From a virus, in the IMG/VR virus record IMGVR_UViG_3300017971_007887, positions 7,523 to 71,522 of that record: a stretch of 64,000 bases of DNA; one strand, written 5' to 3'. Every line of letters begins with the position of its first letter. Within the stretch, counting starts at the first letter, position 1. Below, in pieces: positions 13,423 through 58,400 of this stretch. A program made the position numbers and the translations under genes. Below the pieces are notes generated by a model. It saw only the letters and a program-made list of their open reading frames with translations, searched no databases and was not told the origin of the DNA.

Positions 13423-14985
13423 CTACCACTCCCAGTCGTCGCCGGGGATCTTCCGCACCACCTTGCCCAGCCGCCTGGGCTTGTTCGTGGCCCTCGGCAG
13501 GGACGTCCCGTCCTTGTAGCCGTGGTCGCCGGCCCTGTCTCCAGGCAGTAGTGGTGCCGTGTACTCGTAGTCTATCTTCTCGGCAGTGGGCGACACCACC
13601 TCCGTGTCCTCCAACGGCCAACGATCATGCTTGCCCGTCCGGACGCACACCTGGACCTCGTCGTCGTGGATGAACACCACCCGGCCCATCCTGCCGGTCC
13701 TCCGGTGCCTGACCCGGTCGGTGTCGTACTTCTGCATCAGGTGCGTCAACCGGTCGTGGTGGTTCTCCTGGTCTTCAATGTCGTCGGTCACCACGATCAG
13801 GTCCGTCAGCGCCGACGCGACAGGACGCCCGTCGCCCTCCCACACCACCTCAGCGCCACGGACCTCGGTCTCGTGCCGTTGCAAGCGCCTCAGCTTCTTG
13901 ATCACACCGACCCCAAACTCCGAGTACCTCTTGTGCCGCACCTTCGCACCCACCGGGTACAACAGGCCCTCCTTCTTCTGTTCGGCATGCCTCAGCCGCT
14001 TCAACGCAGACCATCCCTCAGACCCGTCCGGCCATCGCACCCTGGCGCTCGGCTTCTGCAGGTAGGTACCCAACTTGATCACCTTGCCCACTCCCAACTC
14101 TGCACCGCAGTGCACCACCTTGTCTCCTACTTCGATCTCAGGTTCCATGCCTACCTCCTGTTCCGGCAACGCTAGGTCGCCAATCATTTTCGGTTCGCCC
14201 ACCTCGGCCGTGTACTCGCCCACCACGTGCCTGCAATTGAAGCCTCCCGGTTTCTTTGGCGGCTCCGGGAACTTCGGAACGCGAGCGGCGACTATCGGCA
14301 ACGCCCACGTCTCGAAGAAGCTGGCCAGCGGCGATGGCCCGTAATCACCGTTCGTCTTGTTCACGTGCCGCTCCTTGAACTTCTCGAACTGCTCGACCTG
14401 CGCCTCGGTCGGGATCGTGTGCGGTGACGGCGACAACGGCAACTGCCATTTGCCCATACCTGACAGCGGCAGCGCCCACTTCTTGAAGTGCTCGATCAGC
14501 TGGTCGTCGTTGTCGATGATAGCTTTCTGGATCTCCTTCGCGATCGCGGCCGCCACCTTGTGCTCCTCCACAAGGGTCTTCACCGGCTCGATCTTGACCT
14601 CGCCGTCCTTGACCACCACTGCCTTCTCGTCCGGGCGCTCCGCCAGGTCCGCCTTGTTCATCCGCTCGATCTCGGCCATCGTCAGCGCGTTGGCCAGCAT
14701 GGTCTTCCCGTACCGGGAGCCTGCGGTCAACAGCGGGCGCAACTCCGCCAGCGGACTCACACCGTACACTTCCTCCGGCGTGAGCGGCACCTTGAACGGC
14801 TCGATCTGCGGCTCGATGCACGCCACGTCCTCCACCGACCACCGGTCGTGGTAGAACCGCCGCTCCCCGTCCTGCTCGATCACCCTGACCTTCAGCCAGT
14901 CGGCCTCGAACGACTGCACCAATGCCCGCCTGCTGTCCCAATGCACCACCGTCTTACCCACCATGTCCTTGCTCTTCATGATCAA
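13423..14985 (-). CDS. multi-SH3/KOW-like protein with a central stretch of virion/packaging-like motifs
   Basis: Repeats VGKTVVH, VGDKVVH..GVGKVI, VGAKVRH..FGVGVI, DRVRH..GRMGRVV; central YGVSPL, GSRYGKT, WALPIV, GGFNCRH. Confidence 0.6.
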   Translation of the reverse strand: MIMKSKDMVGKTVVHWDSRRALVQSFEADWLKVRVIEQDGERRFYHDRWSVEDVACIEPQIEPFKVPLTPEEVYGVSPLAELRPLLTAGSRYGKTMLANALTMAEIERMNKADLAERPDEKAVVVKDGEVKIEPVKTLVEEHKVAAAIAKEIQKAIIDNDDQLIEHFKKWALPLSGMGKWQLPLSPSPHTIPTEAQVEQFEKFKERHVNKTNGDYGPSPLASFFETWALPIVAARVPKFPEPPKKPGGFNCRHVVGEYTAEVGEPKMIGDLALPEQEVGMEPEIEVGDKVVHCGAELGVGKVIKLGTYLQKPSARVRWPDGSEGWSALKRLRHAEQKKEGLLYPVGAKVRHKRYSEFGVGVIKKLRRLQRHETEVRGAEVVWEGDGRPVASALTDLIVVTDDIEDQENHHDRLTHLMQKYDTDRVRHRRTGRMGRVVFIHDDEVQVCVRTGKHDRWPLEDTEVVSPTAEKIDYEYTAPLLPGDRAGDHGYKDGTSLPRATNKPRRLGKVVRKIPGDDWEW

Positions 14986-15234
14986 CCTCCAGGCTCAGTA
15001 TAGTGCAATCTTCTGGTTTATAAAACAGGTTTTTATAATGGACCGTCTATCGCCACGGACGGTCCGACGTGGGCGGCCGCCTGGACGGAGGTAGGTGCCC
15101 ATCGACCGCTGCGGGTGTTTTGGGAGAAGCGAAAGACGGGTCAGCGCCTCCCACCGAATGATCTCACCTGGTCCCAAGCCCAAGTACTCCCGCCAGGTCG
15201 CCACCGCCCGCTGGGCGAATCCTGGTCTTTCCAG

Positions 15235-15513
15235 TCAAGGTGCTCTGCGCAACTGGTCAGTCAACCACTCCTTGGTCATGCGTCGGCACCCATTGTCGTC
15301 ACAGTACCACGGCCCTGCCGTCGCGGGGCGTTCCCAAAAATGATCGTTGTTCAGGCGCTCCTTGAGCCACTTGATCCGCTCGTCTATCCGCAGGACGTGC
15401 TGCTCGATGCGGTCCAGTTGCTTCTCCTCCCTCGACTCAGTATCGAACACAAGACCCACCACGACGACAAGCGCAGCGATCACCGCAATGACGCCCGCGA
15501 AGTATTTGAACAT
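15235..15513 (-). CDS. small membrane-anchored coiled-coil protein
   Basis: N-terminal hydrophobic helix, then heptad-like segment. Confidence 0.55.
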   Translation of the reverse strand: MFKYFAGVIAVIAALVVVVGLVFDTESREEKQLDRIEQHVLRIDERIKWLKERLNNDHFWERPATAGPWYCDDNGCRRMTKEWLTDQLRRAP

Positions 15514-15578
15514 CCCAGTCCATCAACTCACTCCTTTATGGTTCTCCAGCGTCGTTTGTCCCCGGTTTTTGAAATTGT

Positions 15579-15767
15579 CTACTCTCCCTTCACCACGATG
15601 CTGCCGAACACCACCAGCATAAACACCGGGAATGCGACAGGCCACAGCAGAACCATGGCCGCCCCGATCCTATCTAGCGAAAGTATGTAGTGCCCAAGCA
15701 CCCAGCCAACAGCGGCGTACACATTCGCCGCACCGACGATCGACAGGACTGTCCAGTACCACTCCAT
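15579..15767 (-). CDS. small two-TM membrane protein
   Basis: Hydrophobic 62 aa; LLWPV motif. Confidence 0.55.
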   Translation of the reverse strand: MEWYWTVLSIVGAANVYAAVGWVLGHYILSLDRIGAAMVLLWPVAFPVFMLVVFGSIVVKGE

Positions 15768-15771
15768 ATCT

Positions 15772-15999
15772 CTATTCCTTCTTCAACGCAGCATCCAACT
15801 TCATATCCAGCAATAATTCCAAGTTGGCCAATCTATTCTCCAACGCACTTATCTTCTCAGCCATGTTCGCATTGACCGACTTCAAGGTATCAATAATACC
15901 ATCTACTTTATCCCAATACTCCCGCACCTGGACCGGTGCAGAATTATAACCTCATGTACACGGAGTATCCCAACATTTTACACAATCAGATAGTGCCAT
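15772..15999 (-). CDS. candidate selenoprotein (CxxC-x4-CxU knuckle + coiled coil), or nonsense pseudogene
   Basis: SD AGGAG, ATG 15999, MALSDCVKCWDTPCT[TGA 15954-15952]GYNSAPVQVREYW...LKKE TAG 15774-15772; the frame fills the gap between its neighbours. Confidence 0.55.
15916..15947 (-). promoter_or_regulatory. SECIS-like hairpin downstream of the in-frame UGA
   Basis: UUCUGCACC-GGUCCA-GGUGCGGGA, with further AUA/UAU pairing; the G-led loop starts at +18 after UGA. Confidence 0.5.
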
Positions 16000-16021
16000 A
16001 CCAGTCTCCTCTCATCAGGGA

Positions 16022-16663
16022 TTAATTCACCTCCAGGACCTCATCCACCTGAGCCTTGGCCTCGGCGTCTATCTGCGCCAGATCCTGCATGATGTTCTCG
16101 TAGACCTCCGCGGACTTTACCCACTTCTGAATCACCACCAGGACCCTCTGCGTGATCTCCCTGGTGTGCGTGGCCACCACGAACTTGTCCGCGATCCCCA
16201 GACCCTTCCTCTCCACATCCACACCCTTGGCCATCAACGGCACCAGCATTGCCATGACCCTCATGCCCTCCTTGACATCCATTTCCCCGCTGTCCATCTG
16301 CCTGACGATGTTGACCGCCTTCTCCATGGCCACGCCAGCCGCCCCCTGCATGGCCTGCCCGACCTTGATGTGCCTGTCGGTGGCCTCAGCTATCTGTCTC
16401 TCCCTGCGTTCGGCGGCATCGATCTCCTGTTTCTCGGCCACCCGCCGGTCCACCCGCTCCCAGTGCTCCTTACGATACCTCGACCAGTGCTCGGAAGTGC
16501 ACCGCCTCCTGATGTTGTAGACGGAGCAGCCAGCGTGCCCCTCGAATTCCTCCGCTACTTCCTGGGTTGTATAACCAGGCGGATCGGAGTAGATGAACAT
16601 CTCCCTGGGAGTCCGCCACTTGCTCCTCTTCCTTCTCTTCTTGGGTGCCCGCTTGCGTGCCAT
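16022..16663 (-). CDS. terminase small subunit (probable)
   Basis: N-terminal HTH (TTQEVAEEF..SVYNIRRR...W), helical middle, KGVDVERKGLG; starts MARKRAPKK. Confidence 0.6.
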   Translation of the reverse strand: MARKRAPKKRRKRSKWRTPREMFIYSDPPGYTTQEVAEEFEGHAGCSVYNIRRRCTSEHWSRYRKEHWERVDRRVAEKQEIDAAERRERQIAEATDRHIKVGQAMQGAAGVAMEKAVNIVRQMDSGEMDVKEGMRVMAMLVPLMAKGVDVERKGLGIADKFVVATHTREITQRVLVVIQKWVKSAEVYENIMQDLAQIDAEAKAQVDEVLEVN

Positions 16664-17083
16664 CAGTTCCCCATCTCCTCCAACTTCCGCATCTCCACGG
16701 TGCCCCTGCGGGTCACAAACCACAGTTTTCCGTCGCCATCAATCGACGGGATCCAGCCGGCCAGGCCCATTTTTCGCAGCCTCCCGAGAAAGCTTCCCGC
16801 AGGAGCAGTCCTGGCATGGCCCCACATCGCCTGGGAGAACTGCCGGGTCGTCATGTTCCCCTCCGGGCTGCACCACAGGACCCTCAACGCCTTCTGCTGC
16901 GCGACTGTCAGTATCATCTTCCACCTCCACCCGGACGGCAACCACCTTCCACAGGCGGCGCCTGTCCGGAACTATCATCTTCTCAAACATGTGGTCCGCC
17001 ACCCGCTCACTCTCGTACAGGACCAGGTTCGGGCCAAAGTAGTTCAACCTGCCGCTTCTGGACACTATCGCGTGGAAGATCAT
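16663..17083 (-). other. two small hypothetical ORFs (one winged-HTH-like)
   Basis: ORFs ending at 16739 and 16663; LTVAQQKALRVL..MTTRQFSQAMW..LGRLRKMGL. Confidence 0.45.
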
Positions 17084-17628
17084 CTCACCTCCTTGAAGCC
17101 GACGGACTCTAGCGCCGCCCGGAACATGATGTTGGCAATGTCAACCTTCTCATTATAAACTTCCAACTTCAACCTGACATCTTCATTCACTGTTGTCCCC
17201 ACCACAATATACGTATTAATGGCCTCACACCCTTCGGGTGTAATTTCCAGACAGCCAAAACTGCACATCATGACCTGCTCCACCTGACTGTCTCCAGCAC
17301 TAACCTTGCGGACCACCTTCCACTCCCTGGGCTCTGCGTTCCCGCACCCGGCGTTCCGATTAACGGTCTCCACGAAACTGCCGTCCTTCCGGCACTGCTC
17401 CTTCACCTTCTCAGCGCACTCCTCGTGGACAGATCCGCCACACAACTGGCTGTGCACCCGGACACCAGGTTTGTTGCACACCACACACACCGGCTGCCGG
17501 GTAGCCTGGCGCATGCGCTCAGGTGTGGACGGTATGGATGTCATGAAGTCCCCGGTCGACAGCTTCTCCGGAGGACTCGAGTCGAACATGTCCCTCTGCC
17601 CCTTCTTGGGCGCTCTCTTCCTGGCCAT
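17080..17628 (-). CDS. hypothetical Zn-finger protein with beta-clamp-like motif
   Basis: MARKRAPKKGQRDMFD; CVVC...CGGSVHEEC. Confidence 0.6.
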   Translation of the reverse strand: MARKRAPKKGQRDMFDSSPPEKLSTGDFMTSIPSTPERMRQATRQPVCVVCNKPGVRVHSQLCGGSVHEECAEKVKEQCRKDGSFVETVNRNAGCGNAEPREWKVVRKVSAGDSQVEQVMMCSFGCLEITPEGCEAINTYIVVGTTVNEDVRLKLEVYNEKVDIANIMFRAALESVGFKEVR

Positions 17629-17643
17629 GATTCCGCTCCTGAC

Positions 17644-18060
17644 CTAGATGGCGGGACACGTTCCGGCAGACCACAGGAACGGCATCCAGTCTACCGGCAG
17701 TTCGTCGCCCCAACCCTGGGGAATATCACAGTGCTGATTGGCCCTCTGCAACCAGTAACAGTCGGCCGCCTCGGCGCACTCGGCGTTCGTGTACCCTTGG
17801 AACCACTCGTAGTCCACGCAGTCACCTTGATCCAGCACAGGATGACCGCAGAACATAGCCCACTGTGCCGCCTCGTCGCAAAGCCTGACACACTCCGCGT
17901 AGTGGGTGTCGTAGAAGTCCTGTGGATCGCACTGACACGTCCCCTCTGGTCCCTGGGGACCCTCGATCCCGCAGCCCGCCAGCCAAAACACCAGCACTGC
18001 ACAACCGACCGCAAAGGACAGGAACAGCACTGCCTTCGTCACGAAATCGTTTCCTTTCAT
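17644..18060 (-). CDS. Cys-rich lipoprotein
   Basis: Hydrophobic leader ending in LAGC lipobox; short GPQGPEG collagen-like linker; many Cys. Confidence 0.65.
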   Translation of the reverse strand: MKGNDFVTKAVLFLSFAVGCAVLVFWLAGCGIEGPQGPEGTCQCDPQDFYDTHYAECVRLCDEAAQWAMFCGHPVLDQGDCVDYEWFQGYTNAECAEAADCYWLQRANQHCDIPQGWGDELPVDWMPFLWSAGTCPAI

Positions 18061-53123: not shown

Positions 53124-55448
53124 TTATGGCCCGTTCAGGATCGGGCTGCTGTAAACATTCCACGTGTAGGGCGCGTTCGGCCCGCTGGCGATATCCGGCG
53201 TCAGAGTCGCCCCGACTGCGTCATTGAAGTCGATGTAGCACATCGGGTACGTGTCTGGATCGCAAATCTCGTAAGGTTTGATTGCGTTGTCCAGGATCTG
53301 CTGCAGCTGGCCACCGGTGTATCTATAACCCTTCACCCATAGCGCCCAGTATATGCGACCCTTGTAGAACTGCTGCGCGTAATCGGGTGCACTAGAATGC
53401 CCGTGGGCGGCAATCCTGACGCGGGACGAGCTGTCGTCTGTGACTGAGCCGAAGCAGAACGAGTAGGTGTTGATCGCCTGCGGGGTGTCGTCGTATATGC
53501 TACGGTACGACGAGTCTATGCTGTTCTTGAACCTGCCGGCGAGCACTGTGTCTATGAACGGGTGCGCCATGTCCCCGGTCTCTGCGTTCTGTAACCCGAA
53601 CGCTCCGCGCCAGACTCCGAACCCGACCGGCCTGCTGTTGCCCGCCGGGAACGTCCCGTGGTGCGTGGTGTACAGCTTCCAGGAGTTGTTCCCGCCCGGG
53701 TAGCCATCCTTGGTGTAGAGGCCATACGTACTGACAGCCGCGACTCCAGACGCTTCCTGCCTGACGCCGACTATCACCGAGCACTCACCCTCGTCGATCT
53801 CGAAGTCCTGGTTGCTCGCCAACCACAGGTGGTCGTCCACCCCGTCGAACCACCACCAGTCGGCCCATGGATCCTCTATGACCTCGGCCGAAAGGACCAC
53901 CGGGGCTATCGGCTTGTATACCTCACTGTAGTCGTCGATGCTCACCAGGTCCAGCACCATGTCGCTGCCTGTGCCGCGCCGGATACCGATCACCTTGAAC
54001 AGGGAGTCCCAGTTTTGGAACTCGTCCTCCACCCTCACGGTGGCCCACAGGGGAACGTTCACCGCACCCAGGTTGACCCGATAGCTGACGAACACACGCA
54101 TTCGGCTGTAAGTCTCGACGTACCAGTCCATCAACCAGGCAGCACCGTCATCGCTGTTCAGATCCCCCGCGTCCACGTCGCCCATAGCGCGCCGGCCGTA
54201 CCTTTCCTCCGACCTGCGGCAATCCTGGTTGTTGGAGGAGGTCTTCTCCAGGACGGATATCTTGCCGCCCCTGAGGCTGCTGCGGTTGTACCTGATCACG
54301 AACTCGTTGAACACGTCCGACCGCTTGGTTTCGGTCGGCCCGGATACGCACTCCTGGATACTACCGTCCGCGAACGACAGGTGGTGCATCACGTCCCGAT
54401 CCCACGTCAACGGCTTGAACTCGTACTTCCTGCCCCGCGGGATCATGCCGATGGGCAGCATTCGCAGGACACGGTCGATCAGGACTTTCAGTACCCCGCC
54501 CCTGGAAGACCTTGAGTTGAACACCATGCCCAGGTCTACTTTGGGCATGGCCAGCTTCACCTGCTTCAGCGACGACAGGTCGAACACATCGTCGTTGTTG
54601 GCGAAGAACGTGAGCAGGTACCGAATCACCGACTCGACATCGGTATTTGCGTGACCGGTCACGTCGGCGGTCACCTCCGCAGTGGCCGCGTTGTCGTTGG
54701 TGGTCACCCGGTGGTAGACGTTCCCCTCCGCGTCGGTCTGCCTGGTCTGCGCGGACACCGTCAACGCAGTGTCCTGATCGTACACCTCGGACACCTGGGC
54801 CCCTCCGGCGTACTCGTCCATAGGGTCGCCCATGGCCAGGAACACGTTACCCGCGATGGCACCGTCGATGTTGAGCACGGGCGACTTCTTGCAGCTTCCA
54901 ATCACAATGGGGTACGGCTTGCCAACATGGTCGTCGATCAGATTCGGTATCTTGGTCTGGTCGGCCACCACCGGGGGGAACCGCTGCTCGCCCTCCAGGC
55001 GGGTGTCCTCCACCCTGAAGTCGACGGTCTTCTCCTGTTCGTTATACGTGGGGTCCTGCAGCCGGCCGCGCAGAAGGTGGAACGCCTGGTCGAAGGTGAA
55101 ATCCCTGCCGATGATGTGCCAGTACACGTCCACCCTGATGTCCTGCAGTAGCAGCCCCGTTCTTCTCATCTCGGGGATTGGAAACCGCTCGGACATCACC
55201 GTGAACTTCATGTCCTGCACGCTCGGCTGTCGACCGAATACGTCCACCTTCTCCTTGTGCACCGGGTCGTTCATGATGGCCCCGTGGAACCTCATCCACG
55301 GGCCGTCGGCGGCGGACTGCACATCCACGTCGATGGTGCTGAAGCAGTACCGGTTGCCGCCGGCGTTGATGTCCACCAGGATGCACGCGCGCGCGTTGCG
55401 GTCGTCGGCCAGGCCCTGCCAGCCGTTCTTTTTTACATAGAAGCTCAA
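53124..55448 (-). CDS. tail tip / hub protein with C-terminal LamG-like domain
   Basis: GKPYPIVIG, NEFVIRY...SEERYG; WFDGVDD...FYKGRIY; position after the TMP. Confidence 0.65.
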   Translation of the reverse strand: MSFYVKKNGWQGLADDRNARACILVDINAGGNRYCFSTIDVDVQSAADGPWMRFHGAIMNDPVHKEKVDVFGRQPSVQDMKFTVMSERFPIPEMRRTGLLLQDIRVDVYWHIIGRDFTFDQAFHLLRGRLQDPTYNEQEKTVDFRVEDTRLEGEQRFPPVVADQTKIPNLIDDHVGKPYPIVIGSCKKSPVLNIDGAIAGNVFLAMGDPMDEYAGGAQVSEVYDQDTALTVSAQTRQTDAEGNVYHRVTTNDNAATAEVTADVTGHANTDVESVIRYLLTFFANNDDVFDLSSLKQVKLAMPKVDLGMVFNSRSSRGGVLKVLIDRVLRMLPIGMIPRGRKYEFKPLTWDRDVMHHLSFADGSIQECVSGPTETKRSDVFNEFVIRYNRSSLRGGKISVLEKTSSNNQDCRRSEERYGRRAMGDVDAGDLNSDDGAAWLMDWYVETYSRMRVFVSYRVNLGAVNVPLWATVRVEDEFQNWDSLFKVIGIRRGTGSDMVLDLVSIDDYSEVYKPIAPVVLSAEVIEDPWADWWWFDGVDDHLWLASNQDFEIDEGECSVIVGVRQEASGVAAVSTYGLYTKDGYPGGNNSWKLYTTHHGTFPAGNSRPVGFGVWRGAFGLQNAETGDMAHPFIDTVLAGRFKNSIDSSYRSIYDDTPQAINTYSFCFGSVTDDSSSRVRIAAHGHSSAPDYAQQFYKGRIYWALWVKGYRYTGGQLQQILDNAIKPYEICDPDTYPMCYIDFNDAVGATLTPDIASGPNAPYTWNVYSSPILNGP

Positions 55449-58400
55449 AGCACTTCCTCAAGCTTTATGGACTGCTCCCACATGGACCTGTGCCAATCCA
55501 CCGCGGTGGCGACCAGCACCTGGCTCTCAACCGAGTAGCAGAGTCGGCTCTGGTCCGCGCTACCCATGCGCCTGACAAGGATCGGCTCGTGAAACACATT
55601 GTCGCTGTCCTCCACCAGACCAGCGTCGTCGTCGATCCACACCATCGGGTGCACGCTCTGCCGCAGGAACCTCCACAGCTGGGACGGGTCGGTGATGCCC
55701 ATGCCCCTGTCGAAGTGACCAGTGTACTTGACGTTCACCACGCGCTTCTCCTGGCCCATCTCGTCCACTGACTGGACGCCCGAGCGGCCTGCCGTCACCT
55801 TGACGTTGGGGATGGTCGTGATGGTCGATTCCCACGCATCATCCTTGAGGTCGTAGGTGCGCCCGATCACCAGGCTGCCCAGTCGCAGCTGCGCCTCCGT
55901 GGGACTCGCGTACTGGGATGCGATAGTCAGGCGCAGGCGCTCGTACGACTGCATGGACGCGAACTCGAAGAAGAACCGGTCGGTGAAGATCACAAAGCTG
56001 TCGGTGGCGCCCGCGCCTGCGGTCTCCACGTCCTCCTCAAGGAACAGAGTATCCGTGTTGTTGCCCAGGATCCTGTACGTCCGGTTGGCCAGGGAGCCGG
56101 TGGTGAACCGGACGTAGTACTTCCGGTAATCATCCGACGCGAACTGCTCCGGGATCATGTCCTCGTAAGGGGACATGGTCATGGTAACTGCGTTCTGGTC
56201 GATACTGGTCACGCTGCGAAGGATCATGTAGGCCAGCTGGGTGCCACCATCGCTGTCGAACAGCGTAGACCAACCCCCGCCACCCGCATCCCCGCCCTCC
56301 AGCTTGCAGTGCAGCCAGTTCCTGCCGAACACCGCGAACGCGTTGAAGTTGTACTTCATGTCCGCACTGTTGATGTCCTCGCCCCGCTCCCACTCGAACA
56401 CCTGGGCGGAGCTAGGGGGGCTATCTTCAATCGGCTCCTGCCACCGGATGCTCGGGCTGTCCACGAACACATTATCCGCCTCGTAATGCGCGCCGGTGCG
56501 CAGGTCCCAGTCGTCGTTCAGCCTGGCGAATTCCCCCTCCCACTTGCACCCGAAGCCCTGCATGATGCCCACCGGATTGAAGTGGCACTTGCGCCCCCGC
56601 AGATCCTCGTCGAAGTCCCAGTCGATGTCTACACACCCCTCTCCGTAGGCAAACGACCTCCAGTCGCTGGCCGCCGCGCCGGCCGCAACGTACATTCCCC
56701 ACCTGACCTCGTCGTTGTCTGCCGCGTACGCGTCCTCCTGGAGCGCATCGTAGGTCAGCACCAACTCCATGTGGGCAATCTCCCGGTAGTCCCCGGACGG
56801 CGCGCGGTACACCCTGACCTGGTTCTCGAACGCCAGAACCACGTAGTAGTTCCAATCGGTGGTTGCCCAGTTGGTTGGTGTGAACGTGTCCACCGTGCTG
56901 GCCCCGTTGACATCGTACAACCCAAGGCCGGTGGTGCTGACGGTCACGTAGAACTCCACGTCCTTGTTGGACGGCCCAGAACACAGGATCACCTTGACCC
57001 GGCCGGCGTTGGAGGAGCTGGTGACCGCCTTCACTTCGAACGAACACATCATCCCCGTGTCGTACGAGTCGTTGGCCAGCGCCCGGTTGTAGTTCAGATT
57101 ATCGCCGACGCCGCCCGCGGTGATCGCCAGCTCTCCGAACTCGCCATCAAAGGCCAATGCAGCCGCGCCCGCGCCCGCCTGCACTCGAGTCCATATGTTC
57201 AGGTTAGGGTCAGGGTCGGTAGTGGACGGGTATGCATGTGCGGTCCAGATGCGCAGCCACAGGTCCAGAGTCGGGTACATCTGGATACCAGTCCACATGG
57301 ACGCCCGGTGGATCATGATTTTGTAATAGTCGCTGACCCCGTGGGTGTCATGGTACAGCACCGCCACGTCTATGAAGCAGCTGTCGTGGAACTCACGGGC
57401 GCATACACCAGAGCTGTCGCAGCCGTCCGAGTCAGCGCAGCCGAAGTTGAAATTGTTTTTGCCATCCCAGCCGCTCACCTTTGGGTTGTCCTCGGTCTCC
57501 TGGTAGACGTGGAACACCTCGAACGGCGACACCCCGGCGGCGTCCTCGATGCTGTACATGTGCCATGTACCGTCGTACTCTTGCATGATGGTGCAGTTGG
57601 CGTCGCACACCTGCCCGGTGTTCGTGCTGGTGGTCGCCCAGTTCCAGCCGTCCCGGCTCTCGTCCACGTACACCAGGGCATTGGTCCTGAACGCAATGTA
57701 CAGCATACCGTCCTGGCCCCTGCATAGGTCCATGTTCGGCTGGGTCGCGGGCGCCGCGCTGTAGATCGTGGAGCCGGAGGAAGACCACGTGTATCCCCCG
57801 TCGTCAGACACCCTGGAGAACACGTCAGTGGTCCCTCCACCCCCGTTACTGCGGCCGTAGCACACCACCAGGCGCGAGCCGATCCTGTCGATCGCACACG
57901 ACCACGTGTCCGATGACAGACCCGTTATGTTGGCGATGGCCGTCCAGTTGGAACCCTGATCGAACGACTTGAAGAAGTGCAGCTGGTCATCGTCGCTGAT
58001 CACCACCACGATGGACCCGTCGTCCAGTTCCACCGCATCCACACTAGGCACGTTGGTGGCGGTGATCGCAAGGTCGGACTGCAGGCTGTTGTCCCTCCAC
58101 TGGTAACACATATCCCCACTGCCCAGCTGGTCGTGATCCTGGTACACCCTCATCTCCCAGGTGTGCACCTGGACCGAGGTGCCGCTCTGCCTCACCGCAA
58201 ACAACATCCCCTCCACCCCGTAGTTGGTTCCCCTGTCCTGCCACTTCCGCAGCCTGATCATCTTGGGCGAGTAGTAAGGGGTGGTGTTGTCCACCGCCAG
58301 AAGGCTCTGGTTGTATACAGGAATGTTGGCCCACTCCGCGCCCATGCGGTTGTACTCGTCGCAGATCTCGTCGTCGTCCTCGTCCTCCAGGAACTCTAGT

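What the first reader, a model, noticed from the sequence alone, without database searches (positions are those of the whole stretch)
15772..15999. Candidate phage-encoded selenoprotein with SECIS-like hairpin
Seen: SD AGGAG-6nt-ATG opens MALSDCVKCWDTPCT-UGA-GYNSAP..., and the frame stays open for 59 more codons to a TAG 4 nt before the next gene, filling the gap after TerS. The UGA sits where the fourth Cys of a CxxC-x4-CxC knuckle would be. It is followed by a hairpin (+5 to +36) whose core UGCACC-GGUCCA-GGUGCG begins after an 11-nt spacer and has a GG-led loop. Known: E. coli fdhF SECIS has an 11-nt spacer and a GGUC-containing loop, and a bacterial SECIS lies directly 3' of the UGA. UGA is a normal stop elsewhere in this genome, so this is not global recoding. 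Inference: Sec insertion using host SelB/tRNA-Sec, possibly making expression selenium-dependent. Alternatives: a nonsense mutation, or a promoter (TATAAT lies at +4 to +9).
Basis: partly seen in the sequence, partly recalled or inferred. Interest (0 to 1): 0.87.

Follow-up and report, generated by a model that had tools for sequence, protein, structure and literature searches.

The report
Possible selenocysteine codon in phage gene
A small gene of an uncultured T4-like phage has a UGA stop exactly where every known relative has an invariant cysteine, followed by an RNA hairpin much like the bacterial selenocysteine signal, so it is either a rare phage selenoprotein or a freshly broken gene, and sequence data alone cannot yet tell which.

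Summary
ATG 15999 opens MALSDCVKCWDTPCT, then TGA (15954-15952), then 59 open codons to TAG 15774-15772.

The gene belongs to an unnamed phage small-protein family with an N-terminal CxxC-x4-CxC motif. The TGA sits at its invariant fourth Cys.
- All 62 family proteins have Cys there.
- DNA pattern scans found 82 loci with TGY at that codon and none with TGA.

A 9-bp hairpin with loop GGUCCA follows the TGA. Its GUC lies one base nearer the UGA than in E. coli fdhF, fdnG and fdoG. None of 70 Cys relatives has such a hairpin, and 0.02-0.9% of background positions do, depending on the criterion. TGA is otherwise this phage's commonest stop. Two separately assembled runs carry the TGA.

Against selenocysteine: the TGA is a singleton, the C-terminal part has no relatives, the host is unknown, and no sel gene or tRNA-Sec lies in the 71.5-kb fragment.

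My odds: SelB/SECIS-type selenocysteine insertion about 0.45, recent nonsense allele about 0.40, other readings about 0.15.

The "TerS" label and the promoter alternative found no support. Earlier notes of this scan report phage selenocysteine candidates on other DNA. Three searches of the held library listed no paper on a bacteriophage selenoprotein.

The parts
16006..16010 (-). Shine-Dalgarno AGGAG, 6 nt before the ATG
   Evidence: read directly
15955..15999 (-). Codons 1-15, MALSDCVKCWDTPCT: first three Cys of the family's N-terminal CxxC-x4-CxC motif
   Evidence: Identical to the first 15 residues of P0003-P0007. Family HMM 39.6 bits with C at codon 16.
15952..15954 (-). In-frame TGA, codon 16, at the invariant fourth Cys of the family
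   Evidence: Cys in 62 of 62 family proteins and an invariant column C16. TGY in 82 pattern hits and TGA in none. Present with no other letter in contigs of runs X1 and X2.
15944..15951 (-). Unpaired A/U-rich spacer between the UGA and the 9-bp stem. It contains most of TATAAT (15948-15943).
   Evidence: No sigma-70-like promoter was found in 15400-16400.
15920..15943 (-). SECIS-like hairpin: 5' arm UUCUGCACC, loop GGUCCA (15934-15929), 3' arm GGUGCGGGA. It has two G.U pairs, so the full stem forms only in the sense RNA. It encodes SAPVQVR.
   Evidence: The sequence is unique in the window.
15925..15927 (-). GTG from which gene callers start the 51-aa ORF (P0002). It lies inside the 3' arm of the hairpin and has no Shine-Dalgarno sequence upstream.
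   Evidence: Read directly.
15775..15951 (-). Codons 17-75: GYN continues the family pattern, then a predicted coiled-coil C-terminal part with no relatives
   Evidence: Only the protein itself matches the C-terminal part among 1.84 billion representatives. Weak DivIVA and YwqH-like coiled-coil hits fall below cut-off.
15772..15774 (-). TAG stop, 4 nt before the ATG (15767) of the next gene (62-aa hydrophobic protein, 15579-15767)

Best explanation
The gene (minus strand, 15999-15772) encodes a 75-residue member of an unnamed phage small-protein family. The family has a short N-terminal four-cysteine motif (CxxC-x4-CxC, probably a metal knuckle) followed by a helical or coiled-coil tail.

In this phage the codon for the invariant fourth Cys is UGA. 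[quoted passage not shown] The signal would be the hairpin that starts 9-11 nt after the UGA and presents a GGUC-led loop about 18-20 nt downstream. Ribosomes that fail to insert Sec would release a 15-residue peptide, so the level of the full protein would depend on selenium and on the host's Sec system.

Shown: the UGA, its position at the invariant Cys, the open frame, the hairpin and its rarity, and normal use of TGA as a stop elsewhere.
Inferred: that the host has a Sec system, that its SelB binds this hairpin, and that Sec is tolerated in the motif.
For: 1. The UGA aligns with an invariant Cys.
- 62 of 62 family proteins have Cys there: the hits, with two unrelated coiled-coil hits (P0021, P0042) dropped.
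- C16 is an invariant column in the 62-sequence alignment.
- All 82 DNA pattern hits have TGY by construction of the pattern, and the same pattern ending in TGA found none.

2. The family pattern continues across the UGA. The 15 residues before it are identical to P0003-P0007. G17, Y18 and N19 after it fit the family's CG[WYH][DEN].

3. The hairpin fits published descriptions of the bacterial SECIS.
- The published distance from the UGA to the apical loop is 16-37 nt (PMC10778597, passage read). Here it is 17 nt.
- The published form is a 6-8 bp stem with a conserved G in the loop about 20 nt downstream (PMC4605307, passage read). Here the stem is 9 bp and the loop G bases lie at +18 and +19.
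- An invariant loop G is also described in PMC4607533 (passage read).

4. It resembles the E. coli K-12 elements that I fetched. Counting the U of UGA as 1:
- fdhF has loop GGUC at nt 22-25.
- fdnG and fdoG have GUC at nt 23-25.
- The window has GGUC at nt 21-24.
- The 48-nt fold energy is -14.9 kcal/mol for fdhF and -14.7 for the window.

5. The hairpin is rare.
- General criterion (loop G at +17 to +23, contiguous stem). A stem of at least 9 bp occurs at 0.45% of all minus-strand positions of the record (320 positions) and at least 6 bp at 6.8%. Among 70 Cys homologues, none has at least 6 bp and 1 has at least 5 bp.
- E. coli-derived criterion (GUC in the loop, G at nt 21-25). At least 9 bp occurs at 15 of 71,442 positions (0.02%) and at least 6 bp at 0.30%. 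None of 70 homologues reaches 5 bp.
- Local shuffles give 0.6-0.9% for the general criterion and 0.012-0.024% for the E. coli-like one, both at 9 bp or more.
- The 45 nt after the codon fold more stably than in any of 71 homologues: -14.7 against a best of -13.8 and a mean of -6.1.

6. There is no global recoding. TGA ends 22 of 44 long minus-strand ORFs.

7. The downstream 59 codons are intact and end 4 nt before the next gene. The only in-frame restart (GTG 15927) has no SD and lies inside the stem.

8. The TGA is not a read error. Contigs of two runs with different contig structure (7,737 nt against 4,703 plus 441 nt; depth about 8) carry it with no other letter. Both runs may come from the source sample or samples.
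Against: 1. The TGA is a singleton. No other TGA turned up at this codon in IMG/VR, the JGI metagenome contigs or the GTDB genomes. There is therefore no conserved UGA and no covariation in the hairpin.
2. The C-terminal part has no relatives, so selection on the frame after the UGA cannot be measured.
3. TGT or TGC to TGA is a single base change. Cys codons are among the few one-step routes to a stop in this short gene.
4. The host is unknown. The record is a 47%-complete T4-like phage fragment without host flank. It holds no tRNA (for the window), tRNA-Sec, selA, selB or selD.
5. The Cys looks like a ligand of a structural metal knuckle, which is not the usual redox site of Sec.
6. Relative to E. 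coli, the hairpin lacks the bulged U seen in the fdhF fold, and its loop lies 1 nt closer to the UGA.
7. By folding energy alone the hairpin is unremarkable for this 59% G+C genome. Of 3,000 random 45-nt stretches, 15.7% fold as well, and 1.9% of G+C-matched ones do.
8. My stricter criteria were set after I had seen the hairpin.
9. The gene is 42.5% G+C in a 59% G+C genome, as for a recently acquired and possibly dispensable gene.
Confidence: 0.45

Rival explanations
1. Recent nonsense allele. A single TGT or TGC to TGA change killed an accessory gene of this phage lineage. Translation stops after 15 residues, the rest of the frame has not yet decayed, and the hairpin is a coincidence.
For: - The TGA is unique: 0 of 82 pattern hits, and 62 of 62 family proteins have Cys.
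- It is one base change from the family codon.
- The gene has foreign composition, 42.5% against 59% G+C, and lies among small genes of unknown function.
- No Sec gene lies in the record, and the host is unknown.
- By energy alone 15.7% of random stretches of the genome fold as well, and 6.8% of positions meet the loosest SECIS criterion.
Against: - The hairpin's size, spacing and GGUC loop occur at 0.02-0.9% of background positions and in none of 70 Cys homologues.
- There is no second lesion in 59 downstream codons.
- The allele is the only one visible in two runs, although contigs hide minor variants.
Confidence: 0.4
2. The UGA terminates or is read through without Sec. Either low-level near-cognate read-through occurs, or translation restarts at GTG 15927 and yields the 51-aa coiled-coil protein (P0002) without the Cys motif.
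For: Gene callers already call the 51-aa ORF from GTG 15927. The frame is open, and UGA is generally the leakiest stop (established knowledge, recalled).
Against: - GTG 15927 has no Shine-Dalgarno sequence and lies in the 3' arm of a -14.7 kcal/mol stem.
- All 62 relatives start with the Cys motif at residue 1 or close to it, so a tail-only product has no precedent.
- Read-through by tRNA-Trp would put Trp at an invariant Cys.
Confidence: 0.08
3. The TATAAT at +4 to +9 is a promoter for the downstream genes, and the stop merely marks the end of a short upstream ORF.
For: A perfect TATAAT hexamer lies at 15948-15943.
Against: - The consensus scan found no -35/-10 pair in 15400-16400 on either strand.
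- The 15 residues before the stop and the 3 after it belong to one conserved family domain, so this is one gene, not two.
- TATAAT is expected now and then in a 40% G+C stretch.
Confidence: 0.03
4. Sequencing or assembly error at base 15952.
For: Only contigs, not raw reads, could be inspected.
Against: Two runs from two studies, assembled separately into different contigs at depth about 8, agree over 15000-17000 with no other letter.
Confidence: 0.02

Closest known systems
E. coli formate dehydrogenase genes fdhF, fdnG and fdoG: UGA plus an in-ORF SECIS read by SelB
   Same: An in-frame UGA followed within the coding frame by a hairpin. The loop carries G-U-C at nearly the same distance: nt 22-25 (fdhF) or 23-25 (fdnG, fdoG) against 21-24 here. 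The fold energy is similar, -14.9 against -14.7 kcal/mol. Cys-containing homologues exist.
   Different: The carrier is a phage gene of unknown function. Sec would replace a ligand-like Cys of a four-Cys motif, not a catalytic residue of a molybdoenzyme. There is no bulged U, the loop has 6 nt, and the spacing is 1 nt shorter. The host and its SelB are unknown, and the UGA is not conserved in any relative.
Viral selenoproteins known so far: glutathione peroxidase genes of molluscum contagiosum virus and fowlpox virus (PMC8310308, passages read)
   Same: A virus gene whose UGA is read as Sec by the host machinery. In fowlpox the SECIS lies in the coding region.
   Different: Those are eukaryotic viruses with captured cellular GPx genes and a eukaryotic SECIS/SBP2 mechanism. 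Here a bacterial-type SECIS would lie directly after the UGA in a phage-specific family.
Ordinary nonsense alleles of phage accessory genes
   Same: A single-base route from Cys to stop, no relative shares the stop, and the gene is compositionally foreign.
   Different: A rare SECIS-like hairpin sits exactly at the right distance, and there is no further decay of the frame.
Unnamed phage family M-[AS]-[LM]-S-D-C-x-K-C-W-D-T-P-C-x-C-G... (P0003-P0066, L001-L087)
   Same: The N-terminal 15 residues are identical to some members. G17, Y18 and N19 fit. The protein is small and has a helical tail.
   Different: The fourth Cys codon is TGA. Residues 20-26 (SAPVQVR, which encode the hairpin) depart from the common Y-[RK]-x-[WY]-S. 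The C-terminal part is unique.

Membership tests
Bacterial SelB/SECIS-dependent selenoprotein gene | In-frame UGA inside an otherwise open coding frame with its own start signals | tested here: met
   AGGAG, 6 nt, ATG; 15 codons, UGA, 59 codons, TAG
Bacterial SelB/SECIS-dependent selenoprotein gene | UGA aligns with Cys in homologues, with conservation on both sides | tested here: met
   62 of 62 family proteins have Cys16 and the column is invariant. 15 of 15 residues before the UGA are identical to P0003-P0007. G-Y-N after it fits the family.
Bacterial SelB/SECIS-dependent selenoprotein gene | Hairpin directly 3' of the UGA: 16-37 nt to the apical loop, about 6-8 bp stem, conserved G in the loop about 20 nt downstream (PMC10778597, PMC4605307, PMC4607533; passages read) | tested here: met
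   17 nt to the loop, 9-bp stem, loop GGUCCA with G at +18 and +19. Background at 9 bp or more is 0.45%.
Bacterial SelB/SECIS-dependent selenoprotein gene | UGA and hairpin kept in related sequences (Sec-form orthologues, covarying stem) | tested here: not met
   No TGA at this codon in viral, metagenome or genome contigs. No relative of the C-terminal part exists.
Bacterial SelB/SECIS-dependent selenoprotein gene | The organism that translates it has selA, selB, selC (tRNA-Sec) and selD | not testable with these tools
   The host is unknown.
Bacterial SelB/SECIS-dependent selenoprotein gene | Selenium is incorporated (75Se label, mass spectrometry, selB-dependent read-through) | not testable with these tools
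   Experimental test
E. coli-type minimal SECIS (fdhF) | Loop G-U at nt 23-24 from the U of UGA, and a bulged U in the 5' arm | tested here: inconclusive
   G-U lies at nt 22-23, one base closer, and there is no bulged U. That E. coli needs the bulge is recalled, not read: PMC147357 is not held.
Unnamed phage N-terminal four-Cys family | N-terminal S-D-C-x-K-C-W-D-T-P-C-x-C-G with invariant D5 C6 C9 W10 T12 C14 C16 | tested here: inconclusive
   Every invariant position is present except C16, which is TGA. The family HMM gives 39.6 bits, E 1.9e-14, when codon 16 is read as C.
Nonsense pseudogene | Stop one base from the family's codon and not shared by relatives | tested here: met
   TGY in 82 pattern hits, TGA only here
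Nonsense pseudogene | Further decay (stops or frameshifts) downstream, or an intact allele in the population | tested here: not met
   59 codons are open to a stop 4 nt before the next gene. No other letter appears in the contigs of X1 and X2, though contigs hide minor alleles.
   No PHROG at E 0.01 or better and no Pfam at E 0.1 or better
Global TGA reassignment (code 4 or 25 type phage) | TGA rarely or never used as a stop, with in-frame TGA in many genes | tested here: not met
   TGA ends 22 of 44 long minus-strand ORFs

The most novel reading that the evidence does not exclude
This is a bacteriophage-encoded selenoprotein caught as a one-lineage Cys-to-Sec conversion. A T4-like phage of marine sediment reads UGA as selenocysteine at a ligand position of a four-Cys knuckle, using an fdhF-like in-ORF SECIS and the host's SelB. 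The amount of this small protein then depends on selenium and on the host's Sec system.
Probability: 0.45. Interest if true: 0.8.

Novelty: new variant of a known kind. Interest (0 to 1): 0.6.

Why it matters
Three searches of the held paper library listed no paper that describes a bacteriophage selenoprotein. I judged this from the listings. In the two listed papers I opened, the passages that mention selenocysteine or selenoproteins name only two poxvirus GPx genes as viral selenoproteins (PMC8310308) and, for phages, only predicted tRNA-Sec genes (PMC8879037).

If the UGA is read as Sec, this gene would show three things:
- Phages can tap the host's Sec machinery.
- A new Sec site can arise in one lineage of a Cys family.
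- Gene callers cut such genes short: this one is on record only as a 51-aa ORF.

The case is cheap to test. The signal is a compact 35-codon cassette that looks close enough to the E. coli SECIS to try in E. coli.

If it is a nonsense allele, the value is smaller:
- It gives a measured false-positive example for "TGA at Cys plus hairpin" screens.
- It adds a description of a widespread, unnamed phage four-Cys family.

Tried and rejected
- Insertion idea. I thought NSAPVQVR (the hairpin) might be an 8-residue insertion into the family's GYEY[KR]DWS. MAFFT and a family HMM do not place a gap there, and the HMM alignment simply ends at residue 24. Not supported and not excluded.
- Close relatives of the phage. 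blastn of 14000-18000 against phage records found no match. The search for related loci with the 233-aa and 520-aa neighbours found none. The capsid protein is at most about 29% identical to the listed cultured-phage matches. No syntenic relative could be compared.
- Rfam over 15500-16300 gave only two chance-level hits.
- Hairpin as a repeat. The 20-nt core is unique in the window.
- Intrinsic terminator. No U-run follows the stem, and the scan lists none there.
- T4 gene-60-type bypass. Read directly, I see no in-frame codon matching the take-off ACA downstream, and the frame does not change, so no bypass is needed.
- Other Sec candidates in the record. A crude scan for split frames found none with a stem of 7 bp or more, but spurious plus-strand ORFs clouded it and it missed the finding itself, so it proves little.
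- PolB and Rad50-like genes followed in frame by another ORF after TGA. These are ordinary gene junctions with their own start signals.
- Runs. No RNA holder is listed. Run X3 holds the phage at low depth but has no cover over the TGA. Its 263-nt contig at 15945-15978 belongs to another family member.
- Structure. An AlphaFold2 model of family member P0035 gives a long helix (residues 20-55), with pLDDT about 60 over the Cys motif. I ran no fold search on it. The Atlas names the family only 'hypothetical protein'.
- Supplementary files of papers were not opened. The SECIS tables of PMC4607533 may hold useful comparisons.

Full report
WHAT IS THERE

The finding lies on the minus strand.
- AGGAG (16010-16006) is followed after 6 nt by ATG 15999.
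- The frame reads MALSDCVKCWDTPCT, then TGA (15954-15952), then GYNSAPVQVREYWDKVDG... for 59 codons.
- It ends at TAG 15774-15772, 4 nt before the ATG of a 62-aa hydrophobic protein.
- Gene callers see only a 51-aa ORF from GTG 15927 (P0002).
- The window holds bases 7523-71522 of a 71,522-base IMG/VR record, estimated 47% complete.
- The record's recognisable genes are T4-like: Gp23 capsid protein, Gp20 portal, PolB, DnaB, primase, RecA-like, Rad50-like, RuvC-like and UvrD-like.
- It has no host flank and no close relative among cultured phages.

THE FAMILY

Reading the TGA as a residue revealed an unnamed family.
- A word-index protein search gave five proteins that begin MALSDCVKCWDTPCTCG.
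- An exhaustive phmmer search of 1.84 billion representatives gave 60 hits at E 0.001 or better. One is the 51-aa ORF itself. Two are unrelated coiled-coil proteins, which I dropped. The other 57 are family members.
- All 62 family proteims in hand have Cys at position 16.
- In their alignment D5, C6, C9, W10, T12, C14 and C16 are invariant.
- The motif sits at or within a few residues of the N-terminus. The C-terminal parts fall into several unrelated kinds.
- The family has no Pfam or PHROG model, and the ESM Atlas calls it 'hypothetical protein', mostly viral.
- An AlphaFold2 model of member P0035 shows one long helix (residues 20-55) after a poorly defined Cys segment. That fits a small metal knuckle plus a coiled coil, which is my inference.
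- In other phages the neighbouring genes include a DNA methyltransferase, a primase and a metallophosphoesterase.
- The window's C-terminal part matches nothing but itself.

IS THE TGA SHARED?

No. I scanned with degenerate DNA patterns for the motif.

| Collection | Pattern ending TGY | Pattern ending TGA |
|---|---|---|
| IMG/VR | 4 | 0 |
| Metagenome contigs | 76 | 0 |
| GTDB genomes | 2 | 0 |

- The window's own record may be left out of these scans.
- Some of the 82 TGY loci are the same contig in two collections. About 70 are distinct.
- The patterns demand the other three Cys and K-C-W-D-T-P, so diverged members are not counted.

IS THE TGA REAL, AND IS TGA A STOP HERE?

- Logan contigs of two runs from two studies cover 15000-17000 with no other letter, at depth about 8.
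- Their contig structures differ (7,737 nt against 4,703 plus 441 nt), so the read sets differ. Both may still come from the source sample or samples.
- Contigs cannot show minor alleles.
- TGA ends 22 of 44 long minus-strand ORFs, so the phage does not reassign TGA.

THE HAIRPIN

- The fold is a 9-bp stem (UUCUGCACC and GGUGCGGGA) with loop GGUCCA. The energy is -14.7 kcal/mol over 48 nt, z -2.23.
- Two G.U pairs make the full stem specific to the sense RNA.
- It lies 17 nt from the UGA to the loop, with loop G bases at +18 and +19.
- Published descriptions give 16-37 nt to the apical loop (PMC10778597). They also give a 6-8 bp stem with a conserved G about 20 nt downstream (PMC4605307) and an invariant loop G (PMC4607533). 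I read passages of each.
- I fetched the three E. coli K-12 selenoprotein genes. Counted from the U of UGA, fdhF has GGUC at nt 22-25, fdnG and fdoG have GUC at nt 23-25, and the window has GGUC at nt 21-24. fdhF folds at -14.9 kcal/mol.
- The window lacks the bulged U of fdhF.

How rare is such a hairpin?

| Measure | Background | Cys homologues |
|---|---|---|
| Fold energy of 45 nt at least as stable | 15.7% of 3,000 random stretches; 1.9% of 567 G+C-matched ones | 0 of 71 (best -13.8, mean -6.1) |
| General literature criterion, stem at least 6 bp | 6.8% of record positions | 0 of 70 (1 of 70 at 5 bp or more) |
| General literature criterion, stem at least 9 bp | 0.45% of record positions | 0 of 70 |
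| E. coli-derived criterion, stem at least 6 bp | 0.30% of record positions | 0 of 70 (none at 5 bp or more) |
| E. coli-derived criterion, stem at least 9 bp | 0.02% of record positions | 0 of 70 |

- Shuffles of the gene's own letters give 0.6-0.9% for the general criterion and 0.012-0.024% for the E. coli-like one, both at 9 bp or more.
- I set these criteria after seeing the hairpin, so the smaller figures flatter it.

ALTERNATIVES

- Promoter. TATAAT has no -35 partner in the scan, and the family domain spans the stop.
- Restart at GTG 15927. There is no SD, and the codon is buried in the stem.
- Bypass or frameshift. Neither is needed, because the frame is unchanged.
- Read error. Unlikely.

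WEIGHING

Two readings remain.

For a nonsense allele:
- The TGA is a singleton.
- It is a one-base route from Cys.
- The gene has foreign composition, 42.5% against 59% G+C.
- The host is unknown.
- No sel gene or tRNA-Sec lies in the half-genome in hand.
- The site looks structural rather than redox-active.

For Sec:
- The UGA sits exactly at an invariant Cys.
- A hairpin of the right size, distance and loop follows it, and no Cys relative has one.
- The rest of the gene is undamaged and tightly packed against the next gene.

How I set the odds:
- Only the hairpin and the Cys position separate the two readings.
- I put their joint weight at roughly a hundred- to a thousand-fold for Sec, cut about two-fold by the lack of any other TGA member.
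- The outcome then depends on how common phage selenoproteins are, which is not known from the literature.
- Earlier notes of this scan report such candidates on other DNA, several with conserved UGA. They are AI notes that I did not check. They made me less ready to set that prior near zero, but they are not evidence here.
- I settle at about 0.45 for Sec, 0.40 for a nonsense allele and 0.15 for the rest.

COMPARISON AND NOVELTY

- If the UGA is read as Sec, the gene works like E. coli fdhF-type recoding, but in a phage-specific family and at a knuckle Cys.
- It fails one membership feature (conservation of the UGA and hairpin), and two could not be tested (host machinery and selenium incorporation).
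- Three paper searches listed no paper on a bacteriophage selenoprotein. In the two listed papers I opened, the selenocysteine passages name only poxvirus GPx genes (PMC8310308) and predicted phage tRNA-Sec genes (PMC8879037).
- It is therefore a candidate new variant of a known mechanism. It is unresolved, and a short reporter experiment could settle it.

Noticed in passing
window 16663, 17628, 19017, 24930 and 34016 (minus-strand starts): Five proteins begin with the same basic tag MA[RK]K[RK]AP. They are the 213-aa protein upstream of the finding, a 182-aa protein, a DNA methyltransferase-like protein, a RuvC-like protein and PolB. This may be a shared N-terminal targeting or binding tag. 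A first-reader note (e1-6210970) also mentions it.
   Followed up: partly
L001-L087; proteins P0003-P0066: A widespread unnamed phage small-protein family has the N-terminal motif S-D-C-x-K-C-W-D-T-P-C-x-C-G and at least three unrelated kinds of C-terminal part: coiled coil, 'RIxLAAxVLGV..HP' and 'NPxAKFS..ETEDD'. It has no Pfam or PHROG model.
   Followed up: partly
window 58194-58150 (minus) and 54513-54557 (plus): Two other TGA triplets are followed by GGUC-loop hairpins. The one at 58194 (TGAGG...CACCTC-GGTCCA-GGTGC, 6 bp) resembles the finding's hairpin, but its TGA is out of frame in the 1062-aa gene. The one at 54513 (10 bp) is on the non-coding strand.
   Followed up: no
whole record G000:C1 (71,522 bases): IMG/VR classes the record as 'provirus'. 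All recognisable genes are T4-like phage genes and there is no host flank. The capsid protein is at most about 29% identical to the listed cultured-phage matches.
   Followed up: partly
window 15000-17000 in runs X1 and X3: Short contigs of other members of the same four-Cys family occur in the same samples. One example is an L075-like member in X3 over 15945-15978. Several phages of the community therefore carry the Cys form.
   Followed up: no
window 15772-15999: The gene is 42.5% G+C in a 59% G+C genome. By my direct count, the 24-nt hairpin is 16 of 24 G+C.
   Followed up: partly
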